DNA of 64,000 nucleotides from Promethearchaeota archaeon (GCA_030603385.1 JAUVXW010000009.1:1-64000), one strand, 5' to 3'; positions 2,410-4,062 are shown, numbered from the stretch's first letter. The notes: generated by a model from the sequence alone, not told the origin. A program made the numbers and translations.

Positions 2410-2613
2410 ATATTATCAACTTTGATCTAATTATATTTATTAGAAATTTCCATACATTAAAAAATGATTATATATCTCATCCATTCTATGTTTTTTTATT
2501 ATGTAGCTAACTTTGTTAATATTTTGGTCTAAAATTTTACACCTATAATTTTAAATAGAAAAAAATGTAATTACATTTATTTACAAATTTTAAAAAAAAT
2601 AGTGGGATATTAA

Positions 2614-4062
2614 ATGAGTGAAGAAACTCTTACTTCAAAAGAAAAGTTCTTATTTGGACTATCTAGCTTTCCGGATCAAATTTAAATGAATATTCAAGTC
2701 ATTTAAGGTCAATTTACATACCAGATATTCCAATTCTTAATCTTTACTTTCTACTTTACGGTAATTAGGATACCTACTACTTTGATGCTCACTGCTTATA
2801 TATTGTGGGGAATTTGGAATGCAATTAACGATCCTCTTTTAGGAGCGCTATCAGAAAGGACAAAACATAGGGGAAAATGGGGAAAGAGGAAATTTTACCT
2901 ATTAATTTCTATAATACCTCTTTGTATAATGATGGTATTATTGTTTTTTGTTCCGTTTAGTACCAGTGGTAAAACAGCTGAGTTTTTGTATTTTTTAATA
3001 ACAATAATAGTATTTGAGTTCTTTTACACTTTATTCGATGTAAATGTGAATGCTCTATTTCCTGAAATGTTTCCAACTGAAAAGAAGAGGGCTGCTACTA
3101 ATCTTTATATAAAAATCACCTTAGTTGTGGCATTGATTTTGGCTTCCCTTCTTCCAGGATTAATTATTTCCGATTTTGTACCCGAAAGTGATTCAGCGAT
3201 TCGAGGTATAAAAAGTGAATACTTTCTTATGGCTATTATTGCTGCAATTATAACTATTGTAATATCGATACCATTCCTTTTAAGGGGCGTTAAGGAAAAA
3301 GAGGAAAGGGCTGAGGATTTTGAAAAACGACCTTCTTTTATAGAATCTTTAAAATTTACGTTTAAGAATAAAACATTTGTCAAGTTTGTCATAGCAAACA
3401 CCATGCTCTGGTATTGTTATACAATTTTACCGCTTATTCTACCATTATATGCCGAACACGTTCTTGATATAGAGAAAGGCTCTTTTTTAATTAGTATAGC
3501 ATTATTGCTTGCATTTTTAGTTGCGGCTGCTTCTATGCCTTTGCATAGAAAAATTGGCTTTAGAATCGGGATGAGAAACGAATTAATTCTATCGATGATA
3601 GTTTGGATTGGAACTCTATTTCCTTTCTTCTTGATATCTGGGTCACAATTTAAGGTTCTCTTTCTTTTTATCACTGCCTTACAAGGTTTTCCATTGGCAG
3701 GAGCATTTTATCTTGTTGATATCATACATGCTGATATAATAGATGAGGATGCCCTTAAATTTGGAGTAAAAAGATCTGCCAGTTATTATGGCATTAATGC
3801 TTTTGTCCACCGAATTTCGATAATCTTGGTTATAGTCACAGTTATAGTAATGTTTGGTAATATCGGTTGGGATAAAGAATATGTACCAATAACTGGTAAT
3901 CAAGGTTTAGTTGAGTTTGGCTTAAAAGCGATAATTTGGATATTCCCTGCAATTGCCCTTACTATTGGAATTCTTATGATGAAATCATACGGTTTACATG
4001 GCGAACGTCTTGAAAATATGAGGAAAGAAATAGAACAACACCCTGAATTAAAACCAACCTAA
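2614..4062 (+). CDS. MFS transporter, GPH/MelB-like family; interrupted by a 33-nt insert (join 2614..2679, 2713..4062 = 471 aa)
   Basis: ATG 2614 is in frame with the 2782 ORF. Removing 2680..2712 gives MSEETLTSKEKFLFGLSSFPDQFTYQIFQFLIFTFYF, continuing into WNAINDPLLG, RWGKR-like KWGKRK and DIIDED...GVKR motifs; about 12 TM helices. Confidence 0.85.
2680..2712 (+). other. 33-nt in-frame hairpin insert with two TAA stops; candidate BHB-type mRNA intron
   Basis: Reads ATT TAA ATG AAT ATT CAA GTC ATT TAA GGT CAA. Inner stem TTAAATGA/TCATTTAA; exon GATC pairs with insert GGTC, and both are followed by AA. Confidence 0.55.

What the first reader, a model, noticed from the sequence alone, without database searches (positions are those of the whole stretch)
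2671..2727. Candidate bulge-helix-bulge intron inside a protein-coding (MFS transporter) gene of an Asgard archaeon
Seen in sequence: the MFS reading frame runs ATG 2614 ... CCG GAT CAA (to 2679), then 33 nt with two in-frame TAA, then TTT ACA TAC CAG in the same frame. Deleting 2680..2712 gives a clean TM1 (FGLSSFPDQFTYQIFQFLIF), and the rest of the gene shows no decay. The insert folds as follows: inner stem UUAAAUGA(2682-2689)/UCAUUUAA(2699-2706); a 4-bp central helix of exon GAUC(2674-2677) with insert GGUC(2707-2710); unpaired AAA(U) after the exon strand and AAU after the insert strand. Established: archaeal tRNA-splicing endonuclease cuts after the second bulge nucleotide 3' of each strand of the 4-bp helix. 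Here that means after A2679 and after A2712, which are exactly the junctions that restore the ORF. Such mRNA introns are known mainly from crenarchaeal cbf5. Inference: an EndA-spliced mRNA intron acting as a splice-or-truncate switch on a transporter. Caveats: the exon-exon outer helix is weak (G2673-U2714, then a loop closed by UAUCU 2660-2664 / AGAUA 2723-2727), so the motif is a relaxed BHL type. The GATCAA/GGTCAA direct repeat makes the junction degenerate and also fits a transposon footprint or recombinase-site scar that inactivated the gene.
Basis: partly seen in the sequence, partly recalled or inferred. Interest (0 to 1): 0.9.

Follow-up and report, generated by a model that had tools for sequence, protein, structure and literature searches.

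The report
Young tRNA-type mini-intron in transporter gene
A sugar-transporter gene of an Asgard (Promethearchaeota) archaeon is interrupted by a 33-base, stop-containing hairpin shaped like an archaeal tRNA intron. It is probably cut out of the mRNA by the tRNA-splicing enzymes, and because close relatives still carry the empty site, it shows how such an intron looks soon after it arises.

Summary
Bases 2680-2712 are a 33-nt insert with two in-frame TAA codons inside a GPH/MFS_2 transporter gene. Removing them restores exactly the N-terminus of uninterrupted orthologs.

- **Real, not an artefact.** The identical insert is in four other independent metagenome contigs about 90% identical to the window. 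It is absent from about 70 other orthologs and is not a repeat in 154 related genomes.
- **Splice geometry.** Of the five cut registers that give the same product, only one forms a bulge-helix-bulge motif. It has a central helix GAUC/GGUC, an 8-bp intron hairpin and no exon-exon helix (class HBh').
- **Machinery.** The genome encodes an alpha plus beta EndA pair and RtcB.
- **Same genome.** I verified that single-copy uL11, rpoA1 and uvrB, and a proteasome alpha gene, are broken by 29-37-nt inserts with the same geometry.
- **Selection.** Insert-bearing alleles stay intact, and their private changes are mostly synonymous.

I therefore read it as an EndA/RtcB-spliced mRNA mini-intron (confidence about 0.7). 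No RNA contig covered the junction, so splicing is inferred. The "splice-or-truncate switch" is untested.

One new point concerns origin. The insert ends copy the target site as an imperfect 13-nt direct repeat around the palindrome GATC. A second young intron in this genome has a perfect 12-nt repeat.

Earlier notes of this scan describe similar mini-introns on other contigs of this genome and in other Asgard genomes.

The parts
2614..2679 (+). Exon 1 of the GPH/MFS_2 transporter gene (22 codons, MSEETLTSKEKFLFGLSSFPDQ)
   Evidence: It is identical or near-identical to the N-termini of uninterrupted orthologs. It covers MFS_2 profile positions 2-10.
2680..2712 (+). 33-nt insert, the proposed HBh' mini-intron. 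It has in-frame TAA at 2683-2685 and 2704-2706.
   Evidence: It is present and identical in 5 independent contigs, absent in about 70 orthologs, and single-copy in the genome.
2713..4062 (+). Exon 2 (449 codons plus stop)
   Evidence: PF13347 MFS_2 E=1.9e-45; 83-91% identical to orthologs.
2674..2677 (+). Central helix H, exon strand GAUC
   Evidence: It pairs 4/4 with 2707-2710.
2707..2710 (+). Central helix H, intron strand GGUC (one G-U pair)
2678..2681 (+). 5' bulge AAAU, with the predicted cut after A2679. It has 4 nt in the best fold. It has 3 nt only if U2681-A2706 and U2682-A2705 pair instead.
   Evidence: The cleavage rule (between bulge nt 2 and 3) is from PMC2738675.
2711..2713 (+). 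3' bulge AAU, with the predicted cut after A2712
2682..2689 (+). Inner helix h', 5' arm UUAAAUGA
2699..2706 (+). Inner helix h', 3' arm UCAUUUAA
2674..2687 (+). Copy A of the imperfect direct repeat of the target site (GATCAA-A-TTTAAAT)
   Evidence: The empty site in relatives reads GATCAA|TTTACAT.
2707..2719 (+). Copy B of the direct repeat (GGTCAA-TTTACAT)
   Evidence: The insert ends match the flanks at 5/6 and 6/7 positions; shuffle P about 2e-4 (post hoc statistic).
2782..4062 (+). N-terminally truncated ORF (426 aa, lacks TM1). Gene callers annotate this on insert-bearing contigs.
   Evidence: P0009, P0014 and P0015 are 428-aa calls from contigs that carry the insert.

Best explanation
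The 33 nt at 2680-2712 are a recently gained archaeal bulge-helix-bulge (HBh' class) mini-intron in the mRNA of a GPH/MFS_2 sugar-cation symporter.

**Proposed mechanism.**
1. In the transcript, exon bases GAUC (2674-2677) pair with intron bases GGUC (2707-2710).
2. The intron's own 8-bp hairpin stacks on this helix.
3. The heterotetrameric (alpha-beta)2 splicing endonuclease cuts after the second bulge base on each strand, after A2679 and after A2712.
4. RtcB joins the exons, and probably circularises the 33-mer.
5. The joined mRNA encodes the full 471-aa, 12-helix transporter.
6. Unspliced mRNA would give only a 23-residue peptide.

**What is shown.**
- The insert, its geometry and the exact restoration of the ORF.
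- Its presence in several diverged lineages with intact genes.
- The enzyme genes.
- The same kind of insert in essential genes of the same genome.

**What is inferred.**
- Cleavage and ligation in vivo.
- The efficiency of splicing.
- Any regulatory use.
For: 1. **Exact restoration.** Deleting 2680-2712 restores the ortholog sequence ...PDQ|FTYQ.... Exon 1 plus the next 24 codons encode the conserved first transmembrane helix.

2. **Unique register.** Of the 5 cut registers that give the same product, only one gives a BHB. It has H 4/4 and h' 8 bp, class HBh'. This is also the MFE fold. Null rates are 1-4%.

3. **Not an artefact, not a dead gene.** The identical insert lies in 4 further contigs from other samples, only about 90-93% identical to the window over 1.6-2.8 kb. 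All have intact 471-474-codon frames after removal. Pairwise dN/dS among insert-bearing alleles is 0.13-0.21, for example 92 synonymous against 60 non-synonymous differences for WIN against L005. In codons 1-100, changes private to insert-bearing lineages are 8 synonymous to 5 non-synonymous, where 79% of sites are non-synonymous (binomial P 0.002; 0.05 with a conservative 65%).

4. **Machinery.** The genome has a catalytic EndA (198 aa) and a second EndA-family protein without the catalytic His (200 aa), and RtcB. Kaneta et al. 2018 (PMC5829648) report that Asgard archaea have (alpha-beta)2 EndA with the L1 loop that confers broad specificity for relaxed motifs.

5. **Same genome, checked here.**
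   - The single uL11 gene is split by 37 nt (HBh', H UGGG/CUCA).
   - The single rpoA1 is split by 30 nt containing TGA.
   - The single uvrB is split by 30 nt containing TAA (H CCAG/CUGG).
   - A proteasome alpha gene is split by 32 nt and 29 nt (both hBHBh').
   - Bulges are A-rich as here (AAA, AAU).

6. **Not a repeated element.** The genome holds one copy. No true copy occurs in 154 genomes of the order.
Against: - There is no RNA evidence. Contigs of four metatranscriptome runs cover only 3367-4042.
- The motif is relaxed. It has no exon-exon helix next to H and a 4-nt 5' bulge in the best fold. The fold is weak (-6 kcal/mol, z -1.4 to -2.6).
- All five copies are identical, so there is no covariation test.
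- The gene is mosaic by recombination. Part of the purifying-selection signal could therefore have been imported from insert-less alleles.
- The insert has the look of an insertion with target duplication. At a palindromic target this makes the central helix appear with roughly 15% probability, not 1-4%.
- The gene is not essential, so a tolerated defect cannot be excluded.
Confidence: 0.72

Rival explanations
1. The insert is not removed. It is a recent small insertion (a repair or transposition scar with target duplication) that either killed the gene or left an N-terminally truncated, 11-helix protein started at TTG 2782 or ATG 2785.
For: - An imperfect 13-nt direct repeat of the target and an 8-bp inverted repeat look like an insertion scar.
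- The distribution is narrow, which means the insert is young.
- The gene is non-essential, and the genome has distant paralogs at 27-40% identity.
- Gene callers do find a 426-428-aa ORF.
- No spliced RNA was seen.
Against: - The allele sits in at least three backgrounds about 9% apart, with no second lesion in 471-474 codons and dN/dS 0.13-0.21.
- Private changes in codons 1-100, including the stretch between the insert and the internal start, are mostly synonymous.
- A truncated protein would lack MFS_2 profile positions 1-37, which is TM1.
- The same genome must remove inserts of this size and shape from single-copy uL11, rpoA1 and uvrB.
Confidence: 0.16
2. Programmed translational bypassing. 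The ribosome takes off at CAA 2677-2679 and lands on the matching CAA 2710-2712, skipping 33 nt, as in phage T4 gene 60 or the mitochondrial byp elements.
For: - The take-off and landing codons match (CAA/CAA). They are part of the TCAA repeat.
- A hairpin begins 3 nt after the take-off codon.
Against: - The codon after take-off is a sense codon (AUU). The stop comes one codon later.
- The other inserts of this genome cannot be hopped in this way. The uL11 insert is 37 nt, and the rpoA1 junction has no matching codons.
- Bypassing is not known in archaea (my own knowledge).
Confidence: 0.04
3. The insert is removed from RNA, but by a route other than EndA and RtcB (another nuclease, or self-cleavage).
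For: The motif is relaxed (4-nt bulge, no outer helix) and the fold is weak.
Against: - The only register that restores the ORF and forms a 4-bp helix places both cuts after bulge nt 2, the EndA rule (PMC2738675).
- I did not run an Rfam search on this stretch, so the ribozyme option is untested rather than excluded.
Confidence: 0.05

Closest known systems
BHB intron in the cbf5 (pseudouridine synthase) pre-mRNA of Crenarchaeota (Watanabe 2002; Yoshinari 2006; Yokobori 2009, PMC2738675)
   Same: - A short intron inside an archaeal protein-coding sequence.
- The motif is frequently relaxed.
- Predicted cuts lie between bulge nt 2 and 3 and match the exon borders.
- It is processed by a hetero-oligomeric (alpha-beta)2 endonuclease.
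- It has a gain-and-loss history.
   Different: - Different gene (a transporter, not cbf5) and different phylum (Asgard/Promethearchaeota).
- The intron here is polymorphic among lineages about 90% identical, and empty-site alleles are available.
- The ends of the insert duplicate the target site.
- Splicing of cbf5 was shown by cDNA; here it is only inferred.
Non-canonical tRNA introns of Asgard archaea (bioRxiv 10.64898/2026.10.13.758758) and Thermoproteales
   Same: - Same motif definition (four exon nt pair with four intron nt, 3-nt bulges, h or h').
- Similar sizes: likely 21- and 27-nt tRNA introns in this genome, picked out of a noisy scan.
- Repeated recent gains and no sequence families.
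   Different: The host is an mRNA, so the exon half of the motif is constrained by codons, not by tRNA structure. That preprint found no arrival route and did not examine direct repeats or palindromes.
46-nt BHB intron in the 5' UTR of Haloferax volcanii HVO_1309 (Schwarz et al. 2020, PMC7714728)
   Same: An mRNA substrate of the archaeal splicing endonuclease. The excised part circularises.
   Different: It lies in the untranslated leader, so it does not interrupt a reading frame. The Haloferax enzyme is not the two-subunit Asgard/TACK type (the alpha'2 assignment is my own knowledge). Its processing was confirmed in vitro.
Translational bypass elements (T4 gene 60; byp elements of Magnusiomyces mitochondria)
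   Same: A short stop-containing insert with identical codons at both borders and a hairpin (my own knowledge of these systems).
   Different: No stop directly after the take-off codon. Sibling inserts in this genome lack matched codons or are not multiples of 3.

Membership tests
Archaeal BHB (splicing-endonuclease) intron | [quoted passage not shown] | tested here: met
   GAUC 2674-2677 pairs with GGUC 2707-2710, 4/4 with one G-U. Only this one of the 5 equivalent registers qualifies. The definition is from 10.64898/2026.10.13.758758.
Archaeal BHB (splicing-endonuclease) intron | Two 3-nt bulges on opposite strands, cut between nt 2 and 3 | tested here: inconclusive
   The 3' bulge is AAU (3 nt). 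The 5' bulge is AAAU (4 nt) in the MFE fold. A 3-nt form needs the weaker register U2681-A2706, U2682-A2705. Cuts after nt 2 give the correct ORF.
Archaeal BHB (splicing-endonuclease) intron | At least one flanking helix (h exon-exon, or h' intron-intron) | tested here: met
   h' is 8 bp. h is absent next to H (one G-U only), so the class is HBh'.
Archaeal BHB (splicing-endonuclease) intron | Excision yields the functional product | tested here: met
   The product equals the ortholog N-terminus and a complete MFS_2 domain.
Archaeal BHB (splicing-endonuclease) intron | The host encodes an endonuclease able to cut relaxed motifs, and the ligase | tested here: met
   The genome has EndA alpha (C44), a beta-like subunit (C9) and RtcB (C39). 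Broad specificity of the Asgard (alpha-beta)2 enzyme is taken from PMC5829648 and was not assayed.
Archaeal BHB (splicing-endonuclease) intron | Spliced RNA or a circular intron observed | tested here: inconclusive
   Four RNA runs were laid. Their contigs cover only 3367-4042, none near 2680.
Archaeal BHB (splicing-endonuclease) intron | Helices kept by compensatory changes among orthologs | tested here: inconclusive
   All five copies of the insert are identical, so there is no variation to test.
MITE / IS footprint (mobile-element scar) | Multiple copies or relatives of the sequence in the genome or in related genomes | tested here: not met
   The genome holds one copy. The two 3-mismatch hits in 154 genomes are ordinary sequence: one lies in an open reading frame, the other is unrelated DNA I only read by eye.
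MITE / IS footprint (mobile-element scar) | Target-site duplication and terminal inverted repeats | tested here: met
   There is an imperfect 13-nt direct repeat of the target and an 8-bp inverted repeat. This is compatible with a duplicative insertion as the origin of the intron.
Programmed translational bypass (gene 60 type) | Matched take-off and landing codons, with a stop codon directly after take-off | tested here: not met
   The CAA/CAA codons match, but the next codon is AUU and the UAA comes one codon later.

The most novel reading that the evidence does not exclude
This is a mini-intron caught shortly after birth, and it points to an arrival route that published work calls open.

**Proposed route.** A short duplicative insertion (about 20 nt of filler plus a 12-13-nt target duplication) lands on a site holding a self-complementary tetranucleotide (GATC here). 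The two copies of the target then pair with each other in the RNA and form the central helix. An inverted copy supplies the hairpin. The insertion is spliceable from the moment it arises.

**Second case.** The other young intron I found in this genome is the first intron of a proteasome alpha gene. It is absent from 29 same-genus genomes. It consists of 20 nt of filler plus a perfect 12-nt repeat, AGAGTACTAATC, holding the palindrome GTAC, and its central helix is GUAC/GUAC.

**Older introns.** They show partial or no repeats (rpoA1, uvrB, uL11, proteasome intron 2).

If this is general, a simple kind of insertion plus a tolerant endonuclease would explain how Asgard genes and tRNAs collect introns.
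Probability: 0.3. Interest if true: 0.85.

Novelty: new member of a known kind. Interest (0 to 1): 0.7.

Why it matters
In the papers I could search, endonuclease-spliced introns inside archaeal coding sequences are documented only for cbf5 of Crenarchaeota, plus one 5' UTR case (PMC7714728, PMC2738675).

If Asgard archaea, the closest prokaryotic relatives of eukaryotes, routinely interrupt protein genes with such introns, three consequences follow:
- Gene annotation there is systematically wrong. Here the automatic calls lose the first transmembrane helix.
- Expression of many genes depends on tRNA-splicing enzymes.
- Translation has to wait for RNA processing.

This case adds something the essential-gene cases lack. 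Filled and empty alleles coexist in closely related lineages. The insertion junction can therefore be read directly, and the question of how these introns arrive becomes testable.

Tried and rejected
1. **RNA evidence.** Four metatranscriptome runs (X15, X17, X18, X19) were laid at 88% likeness. Their contigs cover only 3367-4042 and show no joint or gap, so nothing can be said about the junction.

2. **Genome-wide scans for BHB geometry plus ORF restoration.** There was no enrichment over a parallel-pairing control, because ordinary gene boundaries swamp the signal. A relaxed scan of the window gave 216 candidates. The 11 I inspected, including the strongest, were gene-boundary or non-coding artefacts. 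Filtering for direct repeats gave 246 mostly AT-palindrome hits and was useless.

3. **Sequence relatives of the insert.** I found none. The weak hits on C9, C18, G018 and G081 are ordinary coding or 5' sequences.

4. **Origin of the filler by local duplication.** The local alignment score was no better than shuffles.

5. **A copy of the spliced junction elsewhere in the genome** (a retro-copy or a guide). None with up to 4 mismatches in 24 nt.

6. **More distant orthologs with an insert at this site.** None among about 70 loci.

7. **Survey of tRNA introns** by splicing candidates and running ARAGORN. It was too permissive to give a clean catalogue, and only a few clear cases emerged.

8. **Assembly artefact.** Rejected, because five independent assemblies agree.

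9. **Stop-codon readthrough or an altered genetic code.** Rejected, because the 11 extra residues would sit inside TM1 and the orthologs lack them.

Full report
**What is there.** The + strand carries a gene that starts at ATG 2614. After 22 codons (...FPDQ, ending at 2679) come 33 nt with two in-frame TAA codons (2683-2685, 2704-2706). The same frame then continues from 2713 to the stop at 4060-4062.

The downstream part is a GPH-type transporter (PF13347 MFS_2, E 1.9e-45). It has hundreds of homologs labelled Promethearchaeota, Lokiarchaeota or Thorarchaeota. Uninterrupted orthologs of 471-474 aa read ...FGLSSFPDQFTYQIFQF..., exactly what deletion of 2680-2712 gives.

In such an ortholog the Pfam match starts at profile position 2. 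The 428-aa gene call made on an insert-bearing contig starts at position 38. The interrupted part is therefore the conserved first transmembrane helix.

**Is it real, and how widely does it occur?** The identical 33-mer, at the same place, is in four other contigs from other samples: L004, L005, L095 (ENA) and L052 (JGI). These contigs are only 90-93% identical to the window over 1.6-2.8 kb, flanking genes included.

About 70 other orthologs and paralogs have the uninterrupted site. They include the closest insert-less ones: L003, L055, L066, L096 and L068. L052 (insert) and L055 (no insert) come from the same JGI metagenome.

The 33-mer is single-copy in the 3.9-Mb genome. A search with up to 3 mismatches in 154 genomes of the order found two chance hits in ordinary sequence, one of them clearly in frame. 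So this is neither an artefact nor a repeated element.

**Geometry.** Because TCAA is repeated at both borders, five cut registers give the same product. Only one forms a bulge-helix-bulge motif:
- central helix GAUC (2674-2677) / GGUC (2707-2710);
- an 8-bp intron hairpin (2682-2689 / 2699-2706);
- bulges AAA(U) and AAU.

Cutting after the second bulge base is the rule stated for cbf5 in PMC2738675. The motif definition is from the 2026 preprint on Asgard tRNA introns. Applied here, the rule gives cuts after A2679 and A2712.

There is no exon-exon helix next to H, so the class is HBh'. The 5' bulge has 4 nt in the best fold. This fold is the MFE of 2650-2740 and both MFE and centroid of the local 40-53 nt, but it is weak.

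Such a motif at an ORF-restoring register arises in 1.2% of shuffled inserts and in 3.6% of placements of the insert elsewhere in the gene. If the insert arose with a target duplication, however, the central helix only needs a self-complementary 4-mer at one offset. By my estimate that has about a 15% chance. Geometry alone is therefore moderate evidence.

**Is the gene alive?** Among insert-bearing alleles the frame is intact over 471-474 codons, and dN/dS is 0.13-0.21. For WIN against L005 there are 92 synonymous and 60 non-synonymous differences.

The gene is a recombination mosaic. L005 (insert) and L066 (no insert) are almost identical over most of the gene but differ by 13% in the first 150 nt. 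In the first 300 nt the insert-bearing alleles form a tight group (4-9 differences). The nearest insert-less alleles differ at 25-26 positions, which fits a single gain.

Within codons 1-100, changes private to insert-bearing lineages are 8 synonymous to 5 non-synonymous. The non-synonymous ones are all conservative, and 79% of sites are non-synonymous (P 0.002; 0.05 under a conservative assumption).

A loss-of-function allele would have to be old, which would bring decay that is not seen. Otherwise it would have to have spread into several lineages about 9% apart. The genome has no close paralog of this transporter.

**Can the cell remove it?** The genome encodes a catalytic EndA (198 aa, C44) and a second EndA-family protein lacking the catalytic His (200 aa, C9). 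That is the alpha and beta pair. It also encodes RtcB.

Kaneta et al. 2018 report that Asgard archaea have the (alpha-beta)2 enzyme with the L1 loop, which confers broad specificity for relaxed motifs. ARAGORN finds only 18 tRNA genes and Rfam 22, as expected if most tRNA genes are heavily interrupted.

**The same kind of insert elsewhere in this genome.** Following leads from earlier notes of this scan, I checked five more cases myself:
- The only uL11 gene is split by 37 nt. With the BHB rule the junction is GGS|ASGG, H is UGGG/CUCA, and there is no outer helix.
- The only rpoA1 is split by 30 nt with a TGA. H is ACGG/ACGU (3/4), the hairpin is 9 bp, and there is an outer helix.
- The only uvrB is split by 30 nt with a TAA. 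H is CCAG/CUGG.
- A proteasome alpha gene is split by 32 nt (H GUAC/GUAC) and by 29 nt (H CUCA/UGAG), both hBHBh'.

In all of them the predicted cuts give an in-frame product that fits homologs. The bulges are A-rich (AAA, AAU), as in the transporter. The cell must therefore remove 29-37-nt inserts of this shape from essential mRNAs, and the transporter insert fits the class in size, geometry and bulge sequence.

A ribosomal hop is a poor alternative for the class. The uL11 insert is 37 nt, and rpoA1 has no matching border codons. For this insert the stop is not adjacent to the take-off codon.

**What is missing.** Four metatranscriptome runs hold parts of the gene, but only 3367-4042. Splicing is therefore inferred, not seen.

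**Origin.** The empty site in relatives reads GATCAA|TTTACAT. In the filled allele the insert ends with GGTCAA, a copy of the upstream flank (5/6). It begins, after one A, with TTTAAAT, a copy of the downstream flank (6/7). This is an imperfect 13-nt direct repeat around about 19 nt of filler. The shuffle P is about 2e-4 for a statistic I chose after seeing the data.

The last 8 nt of the filler are the inverted copy of the end of repeat copy A, and this forms the hairpin. Because the duplicated target holds the palindrome GATC, the two copies pair with each other and form the central helix.

The first proteasome intron shows the same architecture more cleanly. It has 20 nt of filler plus a perfect 12-nt repeat, AGAGTACTAATC, around the palindrome GTAC. 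It too is young: all 29 same-genus genomes examined have the empty site.

The second proteasome intron is shared with two other species and shows no repeat. rpoA1 and uvrB show partial repeats, and uL11 shows none.

With six introns and post hoc statistics this is only a lead. Still, the 2026 preprint states that the arrival route of Asgard introns is open, and it did not examine direct repeats or palindromes.

**Verdict.** The best reading is an EndA/RtcB-spliced HBh' mini-intron, recently gained and polymorphic (0.72). The main rival is an unspliced insertion that leaves a dead or truncated gene (0.16).

In print the kind is known from cbf5 of Crenarchaeota (PMC2738675) and a Haloferax 5' UTR (PMC7714728). 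Within this scan, similar mini-introns were already noted on other contigs of this genome and in other Asgard genomes.

Noticed in passing
G000 contig C17:41996-42027 (locus L116:1619-1650): The first intron of a proteasome alpha gene is 32 nt: 20 nt of filler plus a perfect 12-nt direct repeat, AGAGTACTAATC, of the exon end. It forms a canonical hBHBh' motif with H GUAC/GUAC. All 29 same-genus genomes examined have the empty site, so it is a very young gain.
   Followed up: yes
G000 contig C17:42137-42165: The second intron of the same proteasome gene is 29 nt (H CUCA/UGAG, hBHBh'). It is shared with two other species (loci L117, L119), is absent in most of the genus, and has no junction repeat.
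   Followed up: partly
G000 contig C41 minus strand (locus L097:1840-1945): The single uL11 gene is split by a 37-nt insert. The BHB rule places the junction 2 nt to the right of the simplest ORF-based guess and gives ...VTGGS|ASGGPPIG. The class is HBh', without an outer helix, like the transporter intron.
   Followed up: partly
G000 contig C4:220013-220042 and C4:251907-251936: The single rpoA1 and uvrB genes each carry a 30-nt in-frame insert with a stop codon (TGA and TAA) and BHB geometry.
   Followed up: partly
loci L004, L005, L095 (proteins P0009, P0014, P0015): Public gene calls on insert-bearing contigs start at the internal Met and give 428-aa proteins that lack TM1. The mini-intron causes a systematic mis-annotation.
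   Followed up: yes
window 2614-4062 compared with L005, L066, L096: The transporter gene is a recombination mosaic. Divergence between close alleles swings from 0-3% to 26% along the gene, and the central loop region (codons about 150-200) is hypervariable.
   Followed up: partly
locus L044 around 1001 and locus L043:1001-2764: A distant homolog (L044) has an in-frame stop at the Q of the conserved ...DQMTYQ motif. Another (L043) gives a tblastn match of 1764 nt for 446 residues, about 420 nt too long. It may carry a larger insertion.
   Followed up: no
whole genome G000: Only 18 (ARAGORN) or 22 (Rfam RF00005) tRNA genes are detected in a 94%-complete 3.9-Mb genome. This is consistent with most tRNA genes being heavily interrupted.
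   Followed up: partly
window 2609-2616 and 2682-2689: The 8-mer TTAAATGA occurs both at the gene's start codon (ATG 2614) and as the 5' arm of the intron hairpin (with ATG 2686). This is probably chance in AT-rich DNA.
   Followed up: no
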